Source: Candidatus Shapirobacteria bacterium (GTDB lineage Bacteria; Patescibacteriota; Microgenomatia; UBA12405). Taken from it: 64,000 bases of DNA. Below are positions 11,920 to 58,248 of the stretch, piece after piece. Under the pieces are notes generated by a model. The model searched no databases. It was not told where the DNA came from and worked only from the letters and a program-made list of their open reading frames with translations. Location: positions 73,884 to 137,883 of the forward strand of contig JBAYIT010000001.1 of the NCBI GenBank assembly GCA_041665485.1, in the 5' to 3' direction. The position numbers and the translations under genes were made by a program. The stretch's first letter is position 1. The number at the start of each line of letters is the position of its first letter.

Positions 11920-14097
11920 TCAAAAAAGTCCCAACTGGTTTTCACAATTAATTTTCTTTTTAGCTGGACTAAAAATTTTATTTAGTCCCAAAGTTCGGTA
12001 AGTTCGTAAACGTTTGAAATACATAATTTTAAGCATTGGTACTTGATCATCAAAATAGTCATAAATCGTAGCGTTGGTTTTTCCCTCAAAACTTCGTTGA
12101 ACTCTACCCACATATTGGATTAGTTTTCCTTTCCACGAAAACGGAAAAGCTAAAAATAGATGTGACACTGCCGGCCAATCAAAACCTTCGCCGATTAATT
12201 TACCCGTAGCAATTAGTAGTTAAAATTGTTTTTGGTTAATTCGTTTAGCAATTCGTTCTCTCTGCTTTTTAGTCATCACTCCAGTAGCTATGGCAGCCTG
12301 AACACCTTTAGTTTATTGTCGAATGAGATCCAGTAGTGTGTGACAGTGGTCGAGACGTTCAGTTAATACTAAGCACTTAGCTCCGGTATTTAACGCATCG
12401 ATAATATCGTCAGTAATTTGATTGTTACGATCAGGGTCGGATATAACTAATCGACAGGCTTCTTGAAAATCTTCTAATTTTACATTAGCTTTAAACTGTG
12501 TTTTTCGAGTGATTAAATCGGTTTTTACGATTTGGTTGGAGTTTTCACTGTTATCAATATTTTCCGTAGTTGCTTTGACTATTTGATAGCTAACATACAA
12601 AAACATCAGTTTTTCTAATTTATCTTTACGATAAGTGGTGGCGGTTAATCCTAAAACATGTTTAGAAGGGAATTGTCTGACGACAGTACTAAAAGTATTG
12701 GCCGGGGCATGATGGCATTCGTCAATAATAATTAACCCAAAATCATTTTTAATTTCATCAACCCCTCGTCTGGATAAAGTCATGTAGGAAGCAATGGTTA
12801 CTTTTTTACCAACACTCCATTTGTTATCGCCAATAATGCCTATATCAAGTTTTGAAAGAGAAAAATAATCAGTAATTCGTTTTTGCCATTGATGGAGCAG
12901 AGTGTTAGTGTGAACAATAATTAAAGTTTTTTGACCCAGTTTTTTCATTAACGCTAGAGCGACCATAGTTTTACCAAAACCAGGTTGAGCTTCCAAAATA
13001 ACTCGGTCATGAGGTAGTAACTGATGTAAAACTTGTTTTTGATCTTTACGAAGGATCAGTTTAGACGGGAAACGTACTTGTTTTGTAGTTACTCGATTAT
13101 CAACAGCCTCGATTTTTATCTGTTCTTTTTGACAAAATTTATTTAGTTTTTCCAAAAATCCCAAAGGAACTCCTATTCCATCTGGCAATCTCTCGAGGGT
13201 TTTAATAAATCGAGGGGTGTTCCAAGTGGAATAACCAAATCGTTCTTTGGTGTAAAAGTCAGGGTTGGGAAAATTTAATTCTTTTTTGAGGTATTTATAC
13301 AGTTTGTCGGGTAAATGAGTGCTAGGAATAAATATGTTTGACCCTAAAATCAATTTAGTTTCTTGATTTTGAGTTGTGGTAACAGGTAGCTCTTCAACAT
13401 TTTCATCGGGCTGGTTAGGCAGATCGTCGATTGTTTTATTGCTGGATAGTTGAAGATATTGATTGATTTCTTGTAAAGATGTTCTTCGAATTGACTGTAG
13501 ATATTGCCATTGATCAGGAATCTCTTGACCATCTGAGTTAATAAAAACGGTTGTGTTGTTTGTGACAAATTTCCCATTAAGTGGCAAACAAATTAAATTT
13601 CCATAACCTTTACCGGTATGTTCATCTTGGCTGGGAAACATTCGATCAAATGTTTTTCGATCTTGGACTCCTGCCTGGTTTAATAGTAATTTACCCATTT
13701 GTCGGGCTAGATGAGCCGGAATTTGCCCGTTAAAGAAAAACCAGACATGACCACCATTGCCCGATTTTGACCGTTCTATGGCACAAAATAGATCATTGTT
13801 AAAAGCTTTAATGGTTACTTTTTGAGCCAAAATCAACCAATCTGGTCCGTCAAAATCGATGGCTAAAAAAGTAGTGGTGTTGTCTGGAAATAATGGATAA
13901 ACGCCAATTACCTGTTTTCCGTCTAAGTGTGATTGAATAACCGAATCTGTCAATGCTAAGGGGCTTTGATTTAGTCGAAAAACTGGAGCGTAACCAGACT
14001 TCTTCTTCGGTAAATCTTCCCAATAACGGGCAAAGACATCGTCTCGGGTGTCAAAGAGAGAACGATAAAGTTTAATATTTTCAGCCGAAATGCTCAT
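11920..14097 (-). pseudogene. primase-polymerase (AEP) / SF2 DExH helicase fusion, disrupted by two in-frame TAA codons
   Basis: N-terminal AEP motifs 'LAIDFDG', 'SKSGNGGHVWFFF' and 'ICLPLNGK'. Helicase motif I 'QPGFGKTM', motif II 'DECHH', motif VI 'QYVGRVQR' and 'LLIATGKLIGEGFDWP'. A single frame runs from 14097 to 11920 and is interrupted only by TAA at 12313-12315 and 12220-12222. Confidence 0.6.
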
Positions 14098-16962: not shown

Positions 16963-17046
16963 GGAGGGTTGGCCGAGTGGTTCATGGCGCACGCCTCGAA
17001 AGCGTGTGGGTGAAAGCCCGCAGAGGTTCAAATCCTCTACCCTCCG
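16963..17046 (+). tRNA. tRNA-Ser(CGA): tRNA-Ser (anticodon CGA)
   Basis: Acceptor GGAGGGT/ACCCTCC, anticodon stem CACGC/GCGTG with loop CTCGAAA, long variable arm, T-arm AGAGG-TTCAAAT-CCTCT. Confidence 0.8.
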
Positions 17047-17048
17047 CC

Positions 17049-17090
17049 TTCGTCCCGACAAAGTCGGGACTTCGGCGGACAATGTCCGCA
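17049..17090 (+). terminator. two consecutive GC hairpins after the tRNA
   Basis: GTCCCGAC-AAA-GTCGGGAC followed by GCGGAC-AAT-GTCCGC. Confidence 0.4.
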
Positions 17091-19218: not shown

Positions 19219-19280
19219 ACAACTTGTTGACAACTAAAGGCGCGTGTTTATAATTAATCTATTACAGCTGTAGTAGATAT

Positions 19281-20297
19281 ATGACACTATCAATCTGGAA
19301 AATAAAAGAAGAAAAATTTCCTCAAAAAGGAAAGTTGGAGGCCAAGATAAAATTTTTGTTAAATTACGCTATTTTGGCACCGTCGGGGCATAATTCCCAA
19401 CCATGGAAATTCAAAATTGAGGATAATACCCTATCGGTTTACGCCGATTTAACCAGAGAAAGGAAAGGAGTTGACCCGAATAATCGCGAACTTTATATAA
19501 GTGTGGGGTGCGCTATTGCCAATATTGAGGTGGCAGCTAAGCATTTTGGGCTAATATGGGAAGAAGAGTGGTGGCCAAAAGCGGTGGAACCAACACTAGT
19601 GGTTGTTTATAAATTTGTTGAGGGAAAAAAAGTTTGGGGCCAGAAAAAAGAACTTTTAAAAGCCATAAGTCAGCGGTCAACTTTTAGAGAAAAATTTGAG
19701 CCAAAAAAGTTAAAAGTTTCAGACAAGCAAAAATTAATGAAATCTGGCCGTGGCGATGGAGCGGAAATAGTTTGGACGAACAATAGTAATAAAGAAAAAT
19801 TGGCGGATTTGATTGAACGAGCCCAAAAAATATGGTTCAGAAGCCGAAAACTAACAGAGGAATTAGAACTTTGGATCAGAAAAGATTTACACGGATTAGG
19901 AGCGGATAAAAAGAAACGAGATATTATAAACCTAAGTAATTTTTCCAATGGATTGAAAGATTTTTTAAGTCATGATTTTGCTGATATAGACAGGAGGGCG
20001 GGGAGAGATAAACAGTGGGCACTGGAAGCCCCAGTATTGGGAGTATTGGTGACAACTAAAGATCACAGAAGGGCGTGGGTGGAGGCGGGAGTGCTGTACC
20101 AAAAAGTAGCATTAGAGGCTGTTGGGCTGGGAATTCAAATTGGGTTTTTCAACTCGGTGGCCGAATTGCCAAAAAAGAGGGCGGAATTGGCACTACTTCT
20201 GAAGAAAAACTGGTGGCCGCAGTTGGTGCTCCGCGCCGGTTATGCAAAGTCGGCTCCCCATAGTCCGAGGAGGGTGGTGGAGGAGGTGTTGGTGTAG
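19281..20297 (+). CDS. nitroreductase-family protein (two-domain)
   Basis: 'ILAPSGHNSQPWKF' nitroreductase motif. 338 aa. Confidence 0.55.
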   Translation: MTLSIWKIKEEKFPQKGKLEAKIKFLLNYAILAPSGHNSQPWKFKIEDNTLSVYADLTRERKGVDPNNRELYISVGCAIANIEVAAKHFGLIWEEEWWPKAVEPTLVVVYKFVEGKKVWGQKKELLKAISQRSTFREKFEPKKLKVSDKQKLMKSGRGDGAEIVWTNNSNKEKLADLIERAQKIWFRSRKLTEELELWIRKDLHGLGADKKKRDIINLSNFSNGLKDFLSHDFADIDRRAGRDKQWALEAPVLGVLVTTKDHRRAWVEAGVLYQKVALEAVGLGIQIGFFNSVAELPKKRAELALLLKKNWWPQLVLRAGYAKSAPHSPRRVVEEVLV

Positions 20298-50255: not shown

Positions 50256-51074
50256 ATGAAACAAATGGTGGTGAGAACAAAGATGGGTTTGGAGGAGATC
50301 GGGAAGACGAAGAATGATTTTGAGTATTGGTCGGCGAGGGAGTTGATGACAGTGCTGGGGTATATTGAATGGAGGAAATTTTGGGGTGTAGTGAAAAAAG
50401 CGAAGGTGGCTTGTAAAAATAGCGGATATGAGCCGAAAAACCATTTTGTCGGAGCCGCCAAAATGGTAGCAATTGGATCTGATACCATGAGGCGGTTAAG
50501 TGACTATTGGTTAACCCGTTATGCCTGTTATTTAATAGCCCAGAATGGGGATAGCCGGAAACCAGAGATTGCTTTTGCCCAAACTTATTTTGCGGTACAA
50601 ACAAGAAAACAGGAAATCAGGGAGGCGGATGAGAAACTGGTAAAAAGAATTGAAGCTAGAGAGAGGTTAAAAGAAACAGAAAGAAAAATTGAGGGAACGG
50701 TATATAAAAGAGGAATTCGAAGTTCGGCTGATTTTGCTAGCTTTAAAGATAAACATATTCGAGGTCTGTATGGAGGGATAGGGATTGCTAGTTTAAAAAA
50801 GAAAAGAAAGATTCCTAAAAATCGGGCCCTGGCAGACTTCGACAGCTTTTTGGAGTTAAGGGCGAAAGATTTTGCCCTAGCGATGACTGATCACAATATT
50901 AAAGACAAAAATTTGACTGGGAAGCCAAAACTAGAAAAAGAGGTTTATGAGAACAGCGTGGCAACTAGAAGAACAATGCTAAAACGTGGAATAATGCCGG
51001 AAAACTTAAAGCCGGAAAAAGATATCAAGGAGATTAAAAGCAGACTAGAGATTAAAGGCGAACTTGAAGGCTAG
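50256..51074 (+). CDS. DNA-damage-inducible protein D (DinD) homolog
   Basis: Collinear with E. coli DinD: 'YWSARELM..LGY', 'KMVAIGSDTMRRLSDYWLTRYACYLIAQNGDSRKPEIAFAQTYFAVQTR'. Confidence 0.6.
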   Translation: MKQMVVRTKMGLEEIGKTKNDFEYWSARELMTVLGYIEWRKFWGVVKKAKVACKNSGYEPKNHFVGAAKMVAIGSDTMRRLSDYWLTRYACYLIAQNGDSRKPEIAFAQTYFAVQTRKQEIREADEKLVKRIEARERLKETERKIEGTVYKRGIRSSADFASFKDKHIRGLYGGIGIASLKKKRKIPKNRALADFDSFLELRAKDFALAMTDHNIKDKNLTGKPKLEKEVYENSVATRRTMLKRGIMPENLKPEKDIKEIKSRLEIKGELEG

Positions 51075-51584
51075 GGTTAGCAAAAGAACAAGACTGACGG
51101 GGAAAACGACTTTGGCATAGGGAAAAGGAGCGTAGCCTAGCTTCTTTTTAGTGTTGAGATAGGTGATGTTGCCAATAAGCATGCCTAGGAAACCCAGGAC
51201 TTGGCCGAAAATAATTTTGTCAATGCCAAGCAGTTTATTAGCGGAGTGGCCAGTTTGGCCGGTGGTAATAAAATAAGCAAGGGTGGTTAGAAGTAAGATT
51301 AGAGAAAGAAATATGGGTTTGGAAAAAATTTCCAATTTCCAATTTCCAATTTCTAATTTATTCAGTTTGGGAGCCAGCCAGAAGGCGAGGGCGGTGTTGA
51401 GGGCGGAGATCCAGATACTAACTAGAAGATCGTCAATGCCGAGTTTTTTGGCAATTAACATTCCCCCACCGACAGTAACGATACATACGGGGCACTGCGC
51501 CCCTACGGGGGGCGCAAGAAATAAGAAATAAGAAATAAGAAATAAGAATGAAAACAAAAATATCATAGAGTTATTGTAATACAT
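51045..51584 (-). CDS. hypothetical membrane protein (start uncertain)
   Basis: Several TM segments. The N-terminal 50 codons run through simple repeats and GC hairpins, so the real start may be an internal Met. Confidence 0.35.
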   Translation of the reverse strand: MYYNNSMIFLFSFLFLISYFLFLAPPVGAQCPVCIVTVGGGMLIAKKLGIDDLLVSIWISALNTALAFWLAPKLNKLEIGNWKLEIFSKPIFLSLILLLTTLAYFITTGQTGHSANKLLGIDKIIFGQVLGFLGMLIGNITYLNTKKKLGYAPFPYAKVVFPVSLVLLLTLAFKFAFNL

Positions 51585-51600
51585 GTTCCCGAAGGCGCCT
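51573..51600. terminator. perfect 28-nt palindrome ATGTTCCCGAAGGCGCCTTCGGGAACAT (hairpin)
   Basis: Perfect inverted repeat 15 nt downstream of the Cys-rich mini-ORF stop, read on the minus strand. Confidence 0.5.
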
Positions 51601-51614
51601 TCGGGAACATCTGG

Positions 51615-51698
51615 CTACTTACCGCATTTACATGCTTTACCTTTTTGGCAGTCGCAGGAACAACTGGAGTCACAGGAACAATTTTTGCTGTCGTCCAT
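51615..51698 (-). CDS. metallothionein-like Cys-rich peptide (27 aa: MDDSKNCSCDSSCSCDCQKGKACKCGK)
   Basis: Not in the supplied ORF track. Has its own promoter (TTGCAT-17-TACACT) and a downstream perfect palindrome. 9 Cys in 27 residues. Confidence 0.4.
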   Translation of the reverse strand: MDDSKNCSCDSSCSCDCQKGKACKCGK

Positions 51699-51719
51699 GG
51701 TTTGTTTAACTGATAACTA

Positions 51720-52271
51720 CTACGAGTGTAGTACTTTATTTAAGATGATGCAAGAGGCAAACCAAAGGGAACCGAGAAGGTAACCACCAAGAATGTCGGT
51801 GGGGTAATGAACTCCGAGGTAGATACGGCTAAAACCAATAAGAAGAACAACAATCACAGCAAACATAAAAGAAATTAAACTTAAACGTCTGTTTTTGGTG
51901 AGACGGTAAATTAAAAAAACTAGGGTGAAATAAAAAACTAGAGAATTCATGGCGTGGCCGGAGGGGAAGCTGGTAGTGGATTCAAAAATTAGCGGAGAAA
52001 TATTGGGCCGAGGCCGGGCAATAAGTGATTTAAGCAGTAAGTTAATAGGGAGACTTAGGGAAGCAAATAAACCAAAGGAGAGAAGATGTTTGGCCCGTTT
52101 AAGCCGGACAACAAGGGCGAGAACTAAAAAGAGAGCAGAAAAAACATACTCGGAACCGAGATTGGTGACGAATAACATAAATTCTGTTAAAGCCGGGGTG
52201 CGAAAAGTGTAGATGAATTGGGAAATAACAAGATCAAAAGGAAGAATAAGATTAATAATATTGTTGACCAC
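51720..52271 (-). CDS. PAP2-family phosphatase (undecaprenyl-diphosphate / lipid phosphatase-like)
   Basis: PAP2 motifs 'KSLIARPRP', 'SFPSGHA' and 'SRIYLGVHYPTD'. Confidence 0.75.
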   Translation of the reverse strand: MVNNIINLILPFDLVISQFIYTFRTPALTEFMLFVTNLGSEYVFSALFLVLALVVRLKRAKHLLSFGLFASLSLPINLLLKSLIARPRPNISPLIFESTTSFPSGHAMNSLVFYFTLVFLIYRLTKNRRLSLISFMFAVIVVLLIGFSRIYLGVHYPTDILGGYLLGSLWFASCIILNKVLHS

Positions 52272-54834: not shown

Positions 54835-55893
54835 CTAAATAGCCTCGAGGGTGCCGGAGACCATGCCCATCCAACAGGAGAAGTTGTAGACGCCTGGTTT
54901 GGTGACAGAGAACTCGCGAACAGAAGTGGTGCCGGGGACTAAATTGACGGGGCCGTCGAACAGTTGGCGGGCAATAACGGCGTTGGTGCAACCGCCGGTG
55001 CCAGTGTCAGTAATTTCCCAACGAACGGGAACATTGGCGCGGACTTTAAGACGAGAGGGAGAGTAGCCACGGGAAGAGGCGGACATTTTGAGGACTTGGA
55101 CGCCGTTGACGATGGGGGGTAAACCTTTGTTAGATCCTAGATTTTGGATGTTAGATCCTAGATTAATTTGTGGAGAAAAACCGAGGACTTTTAGTTGAGA
55201 AGAGAGATTAAAAAAGGCAAAGGCAATGACCAAAAGCCCGACAACTTGGGAGACAGAAGGCTTGGAGCTAAACTTTGAGCCTGAATAGCCGATGAGAAAA
55301 AGCGGAATAGCCGTGCCTAGGGCAAAAAAGCCCATAATTAGGGCGCCGGTAACAAAAGAGCCGGAGGCGAGGGCGAGAGATTGAGAAGTGAGAGTAAAAC
55401 CGCAAGGAAGAAAAAATGTTAGAGCGCCGATAAGAAAACTATTTTTGGTTAGTGATTGAGGAGAAAAAGACAAGCGGATAACTCTTAGACCAAGAATTTG
55501 GAGACCAAAAAGAATCATGGCAAGAGATACGATAATAGTTAGGATTGAACCAAGAGTAAAAGAAAGTCGGATAGACTGGCCAAGAAAACCCAGAAGACCG
55601 CCAAGAAGAAAAAAAGAAGTGAGCCTTCCGGTGTTAAATGAAAAACGATGGTGAGAAAGAGAAAGGGCAATGCCGCCAATTAGTCCGGCGCAAGTGGAAA
55701 AGCCAGCTAAGAGACCAAAGGGAAAGAAGGCTAGGGGGAGAGAATCTGGGGTGACACTAAAAAGAGAAAACAAGCTTGTTTGACTTAAAAAATAAACGGT
55801 AGTTAGAATTATTCCAACAATAATAAAAGAATTTATTAGATTGGCTGGTTTGGAGGGAGTATTTGAATGACAACAATCGCCTTGTGAAGACAT
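54835..55893 (-). CDS. polytopic permease with C-terminal cupredoxin-like (Cu-binding-like) domain
   Basis: N-terminal 'DCCHS'. TM Cys motifs 'FSTCAG' and 'LPCGF'. C-terminal 'TGGCTNAV...GVYNFSCWMGMVSG' resembles cupredoxin_1-type domains. Confidence 0.45.
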   Translation of the reverse strand: MSSQGDCCHSNTPSKPANLINSFIIVGIILTTVYFLSQTSLFSLFSVTPDSLPLAFFPFGLLAGFSTCAGLIGGIALSLSHHRFSFNTGRLTSFFLLGGLLGFLGQSIRLSFTLGSILTIIVSLAMILFGLQILGLRVIRLSFSPQSLTKNSFLIGALTFFLPCGFTLTSQSLALASGSFVTGALIMGFFALGTAIPLFLIGYSGSKFSSKPSVSQVVGLLVIAFAFFNLSSQLKVLGFSPQINLGSNIQNLGSNKGLPPIVNGVQVLKMSASSRGYSPSRLKVRANVPVRWEITDTGTGGCTNAVIARQLFDGPVNLVPGTTSVREFSVTKPGVYNFSCWMGMVSGTLEAI

Positions 55894-55923
55894 ACTACAA
55901 GTGTAGTACTTAAGAAGGATTTG

Positions 55924-56232
55924 TCAAGTGAAGTTTATTTCCAATTTGGTATTAGTAGCCTTGGCGATACGTTCCAACATAGAAAAGTTAGGTTTTGAAT
56001 TGCCCGATTCCAGCCGTGAGATGGCTGGCTGTTGAGAACCGATTTTTTTAGCCAATTGAAGTTGACTTAGTTGATGTTTTAGCCTCAATTCAATAAGTTT
56101 TTGGGTGAGTTGAAATTGAAGATCGAGACAACTAGAGGCCCGTTTAAAAGCCTTGTCTTGGGATAATTTTTTGTCAAGTTGGGTGAGAGTGGTTAATTTA
56201 TTGATATTTCTAGCCATGGGTAAATATAACAT
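55924..56232 (-). CDS. HigA-like XRE HTH antitoxin
   Basis: 'LSQLQLAKKIGSQQPAISRLESG'. Immediately downstream of the toxin gene. Confidence 0.6.
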   Translation of the reverse strand: MLYLPMARNINKLTTLTQLDKKLSQDKAFKRASSCLDLQFQLTQKLIELRLKHQLSQLQLAKKIGSQQPAISRLESGNSKPNFSMLERIAKATNTKLEINFT

Positions 56233-56242
56233 TTTTGGTATA

Positions 56243-56584
56243 TTATGTAAACTCCTTGGTGCGCTTGATGGCTAAATCCAACTCAGATCGGGGAGTTTTT
56301 TGACTTTTTTTGACAAAAACATTGGTAATCAAATAACGAGACTTGATAATTGAGAAAAATAATCTGAAATTAAACTTACCAACAATACGTAGTTCGTAAA
56401 TGGCTGGGTTAGCATAAATTTTTTTAACCCATTTGGTTTGCAGTAGTTGTAATTCATAAATATTTAGCAATTTAAGGCCGTTTCGAACTTTAACCTGATC
56501 TTGAGTGCCTAATTTCTCTATTTGATTAACGATAATTTCTTTACCGGAAACTGATTTATAAAAGACGATTTTGTCGTAGGACAT
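56243..56584 (-). CDS. RelE/ParE-superfamily toxin (HigB / phage Gp49-like)
   Basis: 'IYELRIVGKFNFRLFF' and a C-terminal 'KKSQKTPRSELDLAIKR' pattern typical of the Gp49/HigB family. Confidence 0.55.
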   Translation of the reverse strand: MSYDKIVFYKSVSGKEIIVNQIEKLGTQDQVKVRNGLKLLNIYELQLLQTKWVKKIYANPAIYELRIVGKFNFRLFFSIIKSRYLITNVFVKKSQKTPRSELDLAIKRTKEFT

Positions 56585-56636: not shown

Positions 56637-57367
56637 ATGAAGAAAATGGAGAAAGTGAAAAAGATTTTGGAGAAGACGGGAAAATATTGGATTGGATTTG
56701 TGGGAGATTCGATAACCAGTTGCGAATGGGTGCATCCAAACTGGCGAGAGATTGTGGAGTATGTGCTGAAAGAAGAATTACAACCGAAGTTTGCTGATTG
56801 GCGGGTTCCCTCCTGGGGAATTAGATGTTTTAATTATGGGTTTGACGGAGCAACAACTGGAGATATATTAAAACTAATTTCCAATTACCAATTACCAATT
56901 TCCAACCTCAACCTAGTGATTAGTTTAATGGGAGGAAATGACAGATTGTTTGGAATAAAACCGGAAGAATCAAAAAAAATATTGAGAAAATAATTAAAAA
57001 ACTTGATGAGAGTGGTGTTGAAGTGGTGTGGTGTACTTCAATTCCGGCTTATTATCGGGCAGACAAAAACAAAGAATACGAGCCTTATGCTAAGGCAACT
57101 ATGGCAATTGAAAAATCAATGGGTGTTCAGATAATTAATATGTTTGAAAAATACAAACAATTTGACCTAGATCGTTTTTTTACGTTTAAATCGGAGGAAA
57201 ACCCAGAAGAGAGAGTAAAGGAGGGAGATTTAGATTTTTGGCATCCGAATCAGCTGGGAAATGCTTATATTGCCAAAATAATTTTGGGAGAAGTGTTTGG
57301 GGTGGAATTTGACCCGGAAAAATATATTAAAGAAAATTTGGCAGGAGAAAAATATCCGGGGTATTAA
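56637..57367 (+). pseudogene. SGNH/GDSL hydrolase split by a frameshift at an A8 homopolymer (56976-56983)
   Basis: Block I 'GFVGDSIT' and block III 'GGND' are in the first ORF. Block V 'DFWHPN' is in the second. Adding one A in the A8 run fuses the frames (PEESKKNIEKIIKKLDESGVEVVWCTS). Confidence 0.6.
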
Positions 57368-57720
57368 AGCTTGATGCCGGCTTGAGCGGCAGATTTTTTG
57401 AAAGAAGTGATGGCAAGTTCGCCATAGGCACAAAAAATACGTTCGAAAAGATCATCAAGAGCGGAAGCGGCGAAGTCTTCTTTGGAAAAAGACGGGCTGT
57501 AGGTGTAGGTGTTGCCCTGCATTATCCGTTTGACTATTTTTTTATCGGCCATACGTTTAAGGACAGTCATGATGGTGGTGTAGGCGTGTTTGCCTTCAAT
57601 TTTTTTTAAAACTTCGGCGGGTTTAAGGGCGGTTTTACTTTCCCAAAGAACTTCCATTATTTTTTGTTCAAGACCGCCTAAAAGCTGGCATTTACCGTTG
57701 CAGTGACATTCGCAGTTCAT
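57364..57720 (-). CDS. BlaI/MecI/CopY-family winged-helix repressor with Cys-rich N-terminal tag
   Basis: 'LEQKIMEVLWESKTALKPAEVLK...AYTTIMTVLKRMADKKIV', preceded by 'MNCECHCNGKCQ'. Confidence 0.55.
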   Translation of the reverse strand: MNCECHCNGKCQLLGGLEQKIMEVLWESKTALKPAEVLKKIEGKHAYTTIMTVLKRMADKKIVKRIMQGNTYTYSPSFSKEDFAASALDDLFERIFCAYGELAITSFKKSAAQAGIKL

Positions 57721-57739
57721 AAGTACTACTATTGTAGCA

Positions 57740-58003
57740 TTAATAGACTTCTTCGTGTTTGCCGAAATTTAAGAGCAAAATTCCGTCGGGAACATAAGTG
57801 AAAGTTAAGCGGAGACTACGGTTGAGGCTAATGCTCCAAACGTCACCGTTTTTACCAGACAACTTATGGAGACGAAGAGAATTGGTGTTGGGATTGTCTG
57901 TAAGATCATCGAGAGACTGGCGGATTTTGGCGGCTAATTTAGGTTGAGAACGACGAGATTTGTGAAGCTTTTTTAGGAAAATAGGAGTGAAGTAAAGTTT
58001 CAT
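57740..58003 (-). CDS. RelE/StbE-family toxin
   Basis: 87 aa. 'LRLTFTYVPDGILLLNFGKHEEVY' is a typical RelE/YafQ-type C-terminus. Overlaps the antitoxin gene by 4 nt. Confidence 0.55.
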   Translation of the reverse strand: MKLYFTPIFLKKLHKSRRSQPKLAAKIRQSLDDLTDNPNTNSLRLHKLSGKNGDVWSISLNRSLRLTFTYVPDGILLLNFGKHEEVY

Positions 58004-58248
58004 AGGTCAAACAACTCATCGACGGAATCAACCGAAGACAGTTTACCCTGTTGATATTGAGCGAGAGAGTCGCCCAAAAGCCGGTCGGCTTTAGTGCTTA
58101 AATGGGTAGATCTTTGGCTAACAACGCTGTCAACGGACTTGGAAATGAGGTATTTAACATAGCGGGTAATATCGTAACCAAAACGACTGGCAAGAAAAGA
58201 GAGGGAGGTGGCTTCGGCGGGAGTAAGAGTGATTTGTAGTTTAGTCAT
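58000..58248 (-). CDS. antitoxin (RelB/DinJ or Phd/YefM-like)
   Basis: 82 aa and upstream of the toxin in the same operon. Acidic C-terminus. Confidence 0.45.
   Translation of the reverse strand: MTKLQITLTPAEATSLSFLASRFGYDITRYVKYLISKSVDSVVSQRSTHLSTKADRLLGDSLAQYQQGKLSSVDSVDELFDL

What the first reader, a model, noticed from the sequence alone, without database searches (positions are those of the whole stretch)
51615..51698. Unannotated metallothionein-like Cys-rich mini-ORF with its own promoter and terminator
The minus-strand ORF MDDSKNCSCDSSCSCDCQKGKACKCGK (9 Cys in 27 aa, CxC repeats) is absent from the supplied ORF track. It is preceded by TTGCAT-17-TACACT and followed 15 nt downstream by a perfect 28-nt palindrome. 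The overlapping plus-strand ORF 51583-51783 has no such signals. It is probably a small metal-binding or redox peptide, possibly metallothionein-like.
Basis: partly seen in the sequence, partly recalled or inferred. Interest (0 to 1): 0.55.

Follow-up and report, generated by a model that had tools for sequence, protein, structure and literature searches.

The report
Unannotated copper-regulon metallothionein-like mini-gene
A 27-codon, seven-cysteine gene that annotation missed looks real: it has a repressor-controlled promoter in a predicted copper-stress regulon of an uncultured Candidate Phyla Radiation bacterium, and it belongs to an undescribed family of small metal-cluster proteins.

Summary
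The ORF (51615-51698, minus strand) exists as reported, but it has 7 Cys rather than 9. The 28-nt palindrome starts 4 nt after the stop codon, not 15, and has no T-run.

The ORF is very probably a real gene.
- A second 27-aa ORF with the same Cys spacing (CxCx3CxCxCx5CxC) lies at the same position in another Microgenomates lineage, directly upstream of the same CPxC membrane-protein gene. Five of the seven shared Cys codons differ synonymously.
Its -10 lies inside a 16-bp palindrome, TACTACAnnnGTAGTA, which matches the CopY/CopR copper-repressor operator. The window has 4 such sites against 0.03 expected, and one precedes a CopY-like repressor gene.
- In the closest relative, the slot that holds the mini-ORF holds a Cu-type P1B ATPase.
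- The peptide scores against a profile of an uncurated family built on the module CxCx3CxCGCQEGKxCTC. The module occurs free-standing or fused to HMA, GrpE or thioredoxin, and Streptomyces members are labelled "metallothionein".

Best reading: a copper-inducible, metallothionein-like thiolate-cluster peptide, co-transcribed with the CPxC membrane protein. No metal binding, expression or translation data exist. The hairpin's role is unresolved.

The parts
51615..51698 (-). 27-codon Cys-rich mini-ORF (MDDSKNCSCDSSCSCDCQKGKACKCGK, 7 Cys; stop codon included)
   Evidence: Top hit of the family-core HMM in the six-frame translation of the window (19 bits, E = 1.7e-4; next hit 8 bits). A syntenic 27-aa counterpart occurs in L097 and L269-L278.
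51748..51753 (-). -35-like hexamer TTGCAT, inside the 3' end of the PAP2 gene
   Evidence: The same position holds TTGACA, TTGCCT or TTGCCA, 16-17 nt upstream of the -10, at six other promoters that carry the operator.
51725..51730 (-). -10-like hexamer TACACT, embedded in the left half of the operator
   Evidence: TACA[CA]T sits in the same register at the other operator sites. It lies 6 nt before the ATG of the DsbD_2-cupredoxin gene, which would make that mRNA leaderless.
51718..51733 (.). 16-bp palindromic operator TACTACACTCGTAGTA (CopY/CopR-type cop box). It ends 19 nt before the mini-ORF ATG and overlaps the PAP2 stop codon.
   Evidence: 4 sites in the window against 0.03 expected; the same motif precedes the CPxC genes and the ATPase gene in relatives. 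It fits RNYKACANNYGTMRNY (PMC7253601) except at the two outermost positions.
51583..51610 (.). Perfect 28-nt palindrome (12-bp stem, 4-nt loop as RNA) between the mini-ORF and the CPxC gene. Possible partial terminator or mRNA-stabilising hairpin.
   Evidence: No T-run follows it. It is absent at the equivalent place in L097.
51045..51566 (-). Conserved Microgenomates membrane protein (173 aa; signal-like N-terminus, invariant AQCPxC). Likely co-transcribed partner of the mini-ORF.
   Evidence: 553 homologues; 100% match named Candidatus Shapirobacteria; invariant columns; AlphaFold model, pLDDT 87; no fold assignment. It is always preceded by the operator, and it lies next to a P1B ATPase or a DsbA-like gene in relatives.
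51720..52271 (-). PAP2-family phosphatase gene. Its last about 35 nt carry the mini-ORF promoter and operator.
   Evidence: The same PAP2 3' end with promoter and operator precedes the Cu-ATPase in L001.
57364..57720 (-). 118-aa BlaI/MecI/CopY-family repressor with the N-terminal Cys cluster MNCECHCNGKC. Predicted regulator of the operator sites.
   Evidence: Pfam Penicillinase_R, 3.7e-21. Best NCBIfam hit is CopY_TcrY at 37 bits, below the cut-off of 122.
57724..57739 (.). Operator copy TGCTACAATAGTAGTA, 3 nt upstream of the repressor's ATG (predicted autoregulation)
55893..55908 (.). Operator copy TACTACACTTGTAGTA, abutting the ATG of the DsbD_2 + cupredoxin membrane-protein gene (54835-55893, minus strand)
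19260..19275 (.). Operator copy TATTACAGCTGTAGTA, just downstream of TTGACA-17-TATAAT and 5 nt before the ATG of an Acg-family FMN oxidoreductase (nitroreductase-like) gene (19281-20297, plus strand)

Best explanation
The mini-ORF is a genuine protein-coding gene for a 27-residue, seven-cysteine peptide that works like a metallothionein.

Proposed mechanism:
1. The gene is transcribed from its own promoter (TTGCAT-17-TACACT). The -10 lies inside a 16-bp operator, TACTACACTCGTAGTA.
2. A CopY-like repressor encoded 6 kb away (57364-57720) occupies this operator, and three others in the window, when metal is low.
3. Copper, probably Cu(I) bound by the repressor's N-terminal CxCxCx3C cluster, releases the repressor.
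4. The peptide is then made together with the downstream CPxC membrane protein.
5. The peptide's seven thiolates enclose a small metal-thiolate cluster, most likely Cu(I) and possibly Zn(II). This buffers cytosolic metal or hands it on.
6. In this genome the gene occupies exactly the slot where the nearest relative has a Cu-exporting P1B ATPase.
7. The 12-bp hairpin after the stop codon probably reduces read-through or stabilises the short upstream transcript, so that more peptide than membrane protein is made.

Shown: the ORF, the promoter/operator series, the synteny, the family similarity and the repressor family.

Inferred: translation, metal binding, which metal, repression and induction, and the role of the hairpin.
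For: 1. Conservation at the protein level. L097 and L269-L278 (Microgenomates GW2011_GWA2_40_6 lineage, identified through P0069) carry a 27-aa ORF, MDKKTNKRCKCKPDCHCGCCEDKVCNC.
- The seven-Cys spacing is identical.
- The operator ends 19 nt before the ATG in both lineages, followed by GTTAT in both.
- The ORF lies directly upstream of the homologous CPxC gene.
- Five of the seven aligned Cys codons differ synonymously.

2. Chance is excluded.

3. Promoter and operator.
- The operator has 4 sites in the window against 0.03 expected. Each lies 0-19 nt upstream of a start codon, and one precedes a Penicillinase_R/CopY-like repressor gene.
- The same operator, with a -35 box 16-17 nt upstream of the embedded TACA[CA]T, precedes the CPxC genes and the ATPase gene in L001, L003, L005, L249, L251 and L097.
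- The operator matches the published CopR/CopY consensus.

4. Copper link.
- In L001 the mini-ORF slot holds an HMA + CPC P1B ATPase that passes the Cu-ATPase model (TIGR01511, 586 bits).
- CPxC genes lie next to such ATPases or to DsbA-like genes in other lineages.
- Other regulon members are a DsbD_2-cupredoxin protein and a nitroreductase-like enzyme. The latter resembles the copper-induced nitroreductase CinD of Lactococcus lactis (title cited).

5. Family.
- An HMM of 23 family cores, built without this peptide, scores it at 17.3-19 bits.
- With the Cys fixed, shuffled non-Cys residues reach that score in 76 of 3000 trials. Proteome-composition residues reach it in 31 of 3000.
- The peptide aligns without gaps and keeps the invariant Gly plus the Gln and Lys.
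- Family members are fused to HMA (P0196, P0269), sit in an operon with a CsoR-family repressor (P0121), or are named metallothionein in UniRef for Streptomyces.
Against: - There is no expression, translation or metal-binding evidence of any kind.
- The gene was found in only 2 of about 10 sampled lineages that carry the CPxC gene, and a close relative (L279) lacks the cassette cleanly. It is therefore dispensable.
- The two peptides share little beyond the Cys pattern.
- The family similarity beyond Cys is modest (p about 0.01-0.03), and three near-invariant family residues (G, E, T) differ in this peptide.
- No curated metallothionein model or solved structure matches.
- No protein among 5.8 billion shares three 5-mers with the peptide.
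- The repressor scores below the CopY_TcrY cut-off and lacks the canonical C-terminal CxCx4CxC. BlaI/MecI-type repressors bind similar TACA/TGTA sites, so copper as the signal is inferred from the regulon's content.
- Module fusions to GrpE, HSP20 and thioredoxin fit a structural Zn or redox module as well as they fit metal storage.
- Two family members sit in non-metal contexts.
Confidence: 0.62

Rival explanations
1. The peptide is a structural or regulatory metal-cluster mini-protein, not a storage metallothionein. Possible forms are a Zn-cluster or redox-switch module, or a metallochaperone. It could deliver or remove metal from the CopY-like repressor, as CopZ does for CopY, or it could partner the CPxC membrane protein and the DsbA/DsbD-like proteins in thiol-disulfide repair under copper stress.
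For: - The same module is fused N-terminally to GrpE (6 of 82 representatives), thioredoxin, HSP20, SecE and HMA domains. That pattern is typical of a small folded metal-binding module.
- The regulon is rich in thiol-disulfide proteins: DsbD_2-cupredoxin, the CPxC protein, and DsbA-like genes in relatives.
- No CopZ-type chaperone is seen in the window.
- CopY is known to receive Cu(I) from CopZ (PMC7558416).
Against: - Nothing here separates this reading from metal buffering.
- A 27-residue peptide with 7 Cys and no hydrophobic core is a classic metallothionein-type composition.
- It occupies the slot of a Cu exporter, which suggests a detoxification role.
Confidence: 0.2
2. The ORF is a cis-acting upstream ORF (leader peptide) of the CPxC gene. 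Ribosome progress through its seven Cys codons, together with the hairpin, would tune downstream expression. The peptide itself would have no function.
For: - It lies in the 5' leader of a regulated gene, and a very stable hairpin follows 4 nt after its stop codon.
- It is absent in most lineages, whose CPxC genes have a plain 25-40 nt leader.
Against: - The second lineage has the ORF but no hairpin or other stable structure.
- No alternative antiterminator pairing overlaps the ORF.
- The Cys are at fixed spacing with family-specific Q, G and K residues, not in a run.
- Related modules are free-standing genes or protein domains elsewhere.
- In L269 the cassette brings its own promoter and operator, in addition to the one the CPxC gene already had.
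Confidence: 0.1
3. The ORF is a non-functional chance ORF, or a decaying remnant left after loss of the P1B ATPase gene, such as a fragment of a Cys-rich metal-binding N-terminus.
For: - The ATPase is missing here but present in the closest relative at this exact site.
- The ORF is below gene-caller length limits and is unannotated in both public copies.
Against: - It has no similarity to the L001 ATPase N- or C-terminus.
- No longer protein shares three 5-mers with it.
- The same-length ORF with the same Cys register is kept in a second lineage, with synonymous Cys-codon changes and its own promoter.
- A chance origin is very unlikely.
Confidence: 0.05

Closest known systems
MymT, the Cu(I) metallothionein of Mycobacterium tuberculosis
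   Same: - Small, Cys-rich, originally non-annotated ORF.
- Up-regulated for copper resistance.
- Predicted to hold several Cu(I) ions in a thiolate core (PMC7558416).
   Different: - MymT is 4.9 kDa, about twice as long, with a different Cys pattern.
- It belongs to an actinobacterial copper regulon (from memory, a CsoR/RicR-type repressor), not a CopY-type one.
- Sequence similarity was not tested here.
Uncurated CxCx3CxCGC[QN]EGKxCTC module family, including Streptomyces MtpA-like 'metallothionein' proteins next to phoU
   Same: - Identical seven-Cys spacing.
- Shared Gln after Cys5, invariant Gly, and Lys.
- N-terminal M-[DE]-[DE]-x-K before the first Cys.
- Free-standing members of 32-60 aa.
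   Different: - The window peptide is the shortest found (27 aa; L097's is the same length).
- It has D, K and K where the family has the near-invariant G, E and T.
- No family member has been characterised biochemically as far as the searched literature shows.
- mtpA is only called a metalloprotein gene (PMC7866108).
CopY/CopR copper regulons of Firmicutes (Enterococcus hirae copYZAB, Lactococcus lactis CopR regulon)
   Same: - A winged-helix BlaI/CopY-family repressor.
- An operator with a KACANNYGTM core overlapping the promoter, and predicted autoregulation.
- Regulon members include a Cu P1B ATPase (in relatives) and a nitroreductase-like enzyme.
   Different: - The repressor has an N-terminal CxCxCx3C cluster instead of the C-terminal Cys motif, and it scores below the CopY_TcrY cut-off.
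- The host is a Patescibacteria/Microgenomates bacterium, whereas CopY-like repressors are described as exclusive to Gram-positive bacteria (PMC7558416).
- No CopZ is present. The regulon instead holds a Cys-rich peptide, a CPxC membrane protein and Dsb-like proteins.
Fungal copper metallothionein (Neurospora crassa type; recalled from memory, not tested)
   Same: About 25-26 residues, 7 Cys arranged in CxC motifs, no aromatic residues, and a single Cu(I)-thiolate cluster.
   Different: Different Cys spacing, eukaryotic origin, and no evidence of homology.
SmtA/BmtA bacterial metallothioneins (Pfam Metallothio_Pro)
   Same: Bacterial, small, Cys-rich, metal-regulated.
   Different: SmtA/BmtA proteins have a zinc-finger-like fold with His ligands and are about 55 aa. 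No Pfam or NCBIfam match was found here.

Membership tests
Metallothionein (operational class) | Low molecular mass, high Cys content, CxC motifs, no aromatic residues or His | tested here: met
   27 aa with 7 Cys (26%) arranged as three CxC units within CxCx3CxCxCx5CxC. No F, W, Y or H.
Metallothionein (operational class) | Binds several metal ions in thiolate clusters | not testable with these tools
   Needs the peptide plus metal titration with ESI-MS or spectroscopy.
Metallothionein (operational class) | Metal-responsive expression | tested here: inconclusive
   A CopY-type operator overlaps the -10, and the regulon content points to copper. No expression data exist.
Curated metallothionein sequence families (Pfam, NCBIfam, PDB) | Significant match to a curated model or a solved structure | tested here: not met
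   No Pfam, NCBIfam or PDB hit at permissive thresholds. Only the Streptomyces relative gives a sub-threshold Metallothio_5 hit.
CxCx3CxCGC[QN]EGKxCTC module family (uncurated) | Seven Cys at spacing C-x-C-x3-C-x-C-x-C-x5-C-x-C | tested here: met
   Gap-free alignment with all seven Cys columns invariant.
CxCx3CxCGC[QN]EGKxCTC module family (uncurated) | Similarity beyond the cysteines (Q/N after Cys5, invariant G, K; near-invariant G14, E17, T22) | tested here: inconclusive
   - Q, G and K are present. G14, E17 and T22 are replaced by D, K and K.
- HMM score 17.3-19 bits, E = 1.7e-4 at window scale.
- Cys-fixed shuffles reach the score in 76 of 3000 and 31 of 3000 trials.
CopY/CopR regulon member | Operator matching RNYKACANNYGTMRNY that overlaps the promoter | tested here: met
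   TACTACACTCGTAGTA fits all but the two outermost positions and contains the -10.
CopY/CopR regulon member | Cognate CopY-family repressor in the genome | tested here: inconclusive
   - Penicillinase_R domain, 3.7e-21, with its own operator.
- CopY_TcrY scores 37 bits against a cut-off of 122.
- The Cys motif is N-terminal, not C-terminal.
CopY/CopR regulon member | Derepression by Cu(I) | not testable with these tools
   Needs EMSA or reporter assays with and without Cu(I) and Zn(II).
Attenuation leader peptide | Alternative terminator/antiterminator structures coupled to the uORF and conserved with it | tested here: not met
   A single hairpin with no competing pairing. The second lineage has the ORF without any stable structure.

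The most novel reading that the evidence does not exclude
A 19-residue seven-cysteine module (CxCx3CxCxC[QN]xGKxCxC) would be a previously undescribed, widely distributed bacterial metal-cluster domain.
- Its minimal free-standing form, this 27-aa peptide, would be the smallest bacterial metallothionein.
- In Microgenomates it travels as a roughly 150-nt cassette of promoter, operator and ORF.
- The cassette plugs into a CopY-type copper regulon, which would extend CopY-like copper sensing, with an N-terminal Cys sensor, to the Candidate Phyla Radiation.
- There the peptide can stand in for a lost copper-export ATPase.
Probability: 0.35. Interest if true: 0.65.

Novelty: new variant of a known kind. 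Interest (0 to 1): 0.5.

Why it matters
- Genes shorter than 30 codons are dropped by standard gene callers. Here one turns out to be a probable functional part of metal homeostasis in an uncultured, reduced-genome CPR bacterium.
- The finding gives a complete, testable regulon prediction: repressor, 16-bp operator, four promoters and effector genes. This is for a phylum whose regulation is almost unknown.
- It suggests that a metal-buffering peptide can replace a copper pump.
- It flags an uncurated Cys-module family, also fused to GrpE, HMA and thioredoxin, that deserves a model and biochemical study.

Tried and rejected
- **Direct homology searches with the peptide.** It is too short for the search for homologous proteins and the search for related loci. 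Padding it with X found no protein that shares three 5-mers.
- **Degenerate Cys-codon scans.** They returned mostly TG-type microsatellites. They are not exhaustive and say nothing about how common the ORF is. They did yield L026, L053, L097 and the Streptomyces loci by luck.
- **Generic promoter/terminator scan.** It missed the promoter and called no terminator.
- **Rfam.** It returned only tRNAs, plus one spurious sub-threshold Xist hit over the region.
- **The 825-aa ORF downstream of the 19260 operator.** I checked whether it is a P1B ATPase. It is ClpB/ClpC-like.
- **Remnant of the ATPase.** Rejected: the ORF has no similarity to the L001 ATPase termini.
- **Shine-Dalgarno evidence.** Uninformative, because this genome does not use SD (6 of 57 long ORFs against a 13% background).
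- **Literature.** Searches found no description of the module or of metallothioneins in Patescibacteria.

Full report
**The observation.** The minus-strand ORF at 51615-51698 is there and translates exactly as reported. It lies in the 135-nt gap between a PAP2 phosphatase gene (51720-52271) and a conserved membrane-protein gene (51045-51566).

Three details were wrong:
- The peptide has 7 cysteines, not 9.
- The perfect 28-nt palindrome (51583-51610) begins 4 nt after the TAG stop, not 15.
- No T-run follows the palindrome, so the generic scan called neither a terminator nor the promoter.

The feature is far from chance.
- It is the only ORF of 12-120 aa in the window with at least 5 Cys and at least 18% Cys.
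- Two hundred simulated windows gave one ORF in total with 7 Cys and 25% Cys.
- The palindrome is unique, is the longest perfect one in the window, and folds at -21.8 kcal/mol with z = -5.7.

**Organism and neighbours.** The downstream 173-aa protein is 100% identical to a hypothetical protein of a Candidatus Shapirobacteria MAG. It has 553 homologues, and those that carry a name come from Microgenomates or Patescibacteria. It has a signal-like N-terminus followed by an invariant AQCPxC motif. Neither public copy of this locus annotates the mini-ORF. L008 is identical to the window over 6.5 kb.

**Synteny.**
- In the closest relative (neighbour protein 75% identical; L001, L002) the order is PAP2, then a 954-aa HMA + E1-E2 ATPase, then the CPxC protein, then Bro-N, then glyoxalase. 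The window has the same order, except that the mini-ORF and palindrome replace the ATPase.
- That ATPase has GMHCASC and CPC motifs and passes the copper-ATPase model (TIGR01511, 586 bits).
- In other lineages the CPxC gene follows such an ATPase or is divergent from a DsbA/Thioredoxin_4 gene.
- The mini-ORF shows no similarity to the ATPase termini.

**A second copy in another lineage.** One hit, L097, proved decisive.
- L097 is a 2.7-kb contig binned as Gammaproteobacteria.
- Its ATPase fragment is 41% identical to the L001 ATPase, including an unusual C-terminal extension of about 230 aa.
- Its CPxC fragment is identical to the protein of Microgenomates GW2011_GWA2_40_6.
- It carries a 27-aa ORF, MDKKTNKRCKCKPDCHCGCCEDKVCNC, 18 nt upstream of the CPxC gene.
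- Ten further groundwater contigs (L269-L278) carry the same ORF. A close relative (L279) lacks a cassette of about 150 nt, made of promoter, operator and ORF, with clean boundaries.

The two peptides share length, the start MD, and all seven Cys in the register CxCx3CxCxCx5CxC. Five of the seven Cys codons differ synonymously. That indicates selection on the protein rather than on the DNA. Seven other sampled lineages have no such ORF.

**Promoter and operator.** Immediately upstream of both mini-ORFs lies TACTACAnnnGTAGTA, followed by GTTAT, and it ends 19 nt before the ATG in both.
- The motif occurs four times in the window (up to one mismatch allowed) against 0.03 expected:
  - before the mini-ORF;
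  - abutting the ATG of a DsbD_2 + cupredoxin membrane protein;
  - 5 nt before an Acg-family FMN oxidoreductase;
  - 3 nt before a 118-aa Penicillinase_R (BlaI/MecI/CopY) repressor. That repressor's best NCBIfam match is CopY/TcrY, below cut-off, and it begins MNCECHCNGKC.
- The motif also precedes the ATPase and the CPxC genes in L001, L003, L005, L249, L251 and L097.
- When these sites are aligned, a -35 box (TTGACA, TTGCAT, TTGCCT or TTGCCA) lies 16-17 nt upstream of TACA[CA]T, which is the left half of the operator.
- The motif fits the experimentally refined CopR/CopY operator RNYKACANNYGTMRNY except at the two outermost bases (PMC7253601).
- This genome shows no Shine-Dalgarno signal, and many genes have a -10-like box 6-10 nt before the ATG. 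Lack of a ribosome-binding site is therefore not an argument against translation.

**Family.** No curated model or solved structure matches the peptide.
- The scans and a profile search uncovered an uncurated family built on the module CxCx3CxCGC[QN]EGKxCTC.
- A profile search of 1.84 billion representatives found 86 members at E of 0.001 or better.
- Members occur as free-standing proteins of 34-60 aa. Others are fused to GrpE (6 of 82), thioredoxin, HSP20, SecE or HMA domains.
- One member overlaps a CsoR-family repressor gene. One is followed by the start of an HMA domain. Streptomyces members, next to phoU, are labelled metallothionein in UniRef and correspond to mtpA.
- The window peptide aligns without gaps and keeps the invariant Gly plus the Gln and Lys, but it differs at three near-invariant positions.
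- An HMM built without it makes it the top six-frame hit in the window (19 bits, E = 1.7e-4; next hit 8 bits). With the Cys held fixed, shuffled residues reach its score in only 1-2.5% of trials.
- Membership is therefore probable but not proven. Two family members sit in non-metal contexts.

**Interpretation.** The best-supported reading is a real, copper-inducible gene for a metallothionein-like thiolate-cluster peptide.
- It would be the first gene of a two-gene unit with the CPxC membrane protein.
- It would belong to a CopY-like regulon that also contains thiol-disulfide and redox proteins.
- In this genome it fills the place of a copper exporter.
- The closest functional analogue is MymT, a once-unannotated copper metallothionein (PMC7558416).

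Other readings remain open to different degrees.
- A chaperone or redox-module role cannot be separated from metal buffering with these data.
- A pure leader-peptide role is unlikely. The second lineage lacks the hairpin, and the cassette brings its own promoter.
- The hairpin's function (partial terminator or stabiliser) is unresolved.
- The fold of the CPxC partner could not be assigned.

**Novelty.** No searched paper describes the module, or metallothioneins in Patescibacteria. CopY-like repressors are described as restricted to Gram-positive bacteria. I rate this a new variant of a known kind, of moderate interest. Everything functional rests on comparative inference.

Noticed in passing
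window 1-64000: GC skew is very strong (+0.25 to +0.39 on the plus strand) from about 14 kb onward, whatever the gene strand. It is negative at 2-12 kb. The cumulative-skew minimum near 10-12 kb suggests a replication origin or terminus there.
   Followed up: no
window 51516-51550 and 51327-51354: Two heptanucleotide tandem repeats lie inside the CPxC membrane-protein gene: AAGAAAT x5 in the signal-peptide region and AATTTCC x4. The period is not a multiple of 3, so a change in copy number would shift the frame, which could give phase variation. The second repeat encodes an insertion (EIGNWKLEIF) relative to the family consensus.
   Followed up: partly
window 51497-51515: A GC-rich palindrome, GCGCCCC-CCGTA-GGGGCGC, lies inside the coding region of the CPxC gene and encodes LAPPVGAQ just before the CPVC motif.
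   Followed up: no
L097 (CAZSLG010000096.1): This 2.7-kb contig is part of a species-representative MAG labelled uncultured Gammaproteobacteria. Its genes are Microgenomates genes: the CPxC fragment matches P0069 of GW2011_GWA2_40_6 at 33 of 33 residues. It is probably a binning error.
   Followed up: yes
L001 109-2973; L097 1197-2657; L254, L269: Microgenomates P1B copper ATPases carry a conserved C-terminal extension of about 230 aa after the last membrane helix. It contains two repeats of a motif of the type GY(D/L)EA.MM.E..L...G....FFG. No domain assignment was found.
   Followed up: no
L269 2228-2500 versus L279 1015-1070: The mini-ORF comes as a cassette of about 150 nt made of promoter, operator and ORF. 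It is present in ten contigs of one population and cleanly absent in a close relative. L274 carries the cassette with a different upstream flank. It behaves like a small movable or recombining unit.
   Followed up: partly
P0230, P0232, P0235, P0245, P0251 and others: The seven-Cys module is fused to the N-terminus of GrpE in six of 82 representatives, and also to thioredoxin, HSP20, SecE and HMA domains. This suggests a metal- or redox-sensing add-on to chaperones.
   Followed up: no
window, starts of long ORFs: There is no Shine-Dalgarno enrichment (6 of 57 long ORFs against a 13% background). A TAnAAT-like box frequently lies 6-10 nt upstream of the ATG, which suggests widespread leaderless or very short-leader mRNAs.
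   Followed up: partly
window 55924-56584 and 57740-58248: Two toxin-antitoxin-like pairs flank the CopY-like repressor gene: Gp49/HigB-like + HTH_3, and ParE/HigB-like + ParD-like. GDSL-lipase-like ORF fragments lie at 56637-57367.
   Followed up: no
window 12313-14097 (minus strand): A 594-aa protein with a TOTE conflict-system archaeo-eukaryotic primase domain plus a helicase domain, which looks like a defence-system component.
   Followed up: no
window 17043-17079: A GC-rich hairpin without a T-run (-25.8 kcal/mol) lies directly after a tRNA gene. It suggests that U-tract-less hairpins may serve as terminators in this genome, which bears on the palindrome after the mini-ORF.
   Followed up: partly
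L053 2795-4010: In a Bacteroidales-like genome, a 61-aa family member lies just downstream of an AraC-type regulator. That regulator's N-terminus carries an MxCxxC, HMA-like motif (NMVCDRC).
   Followed up: partly
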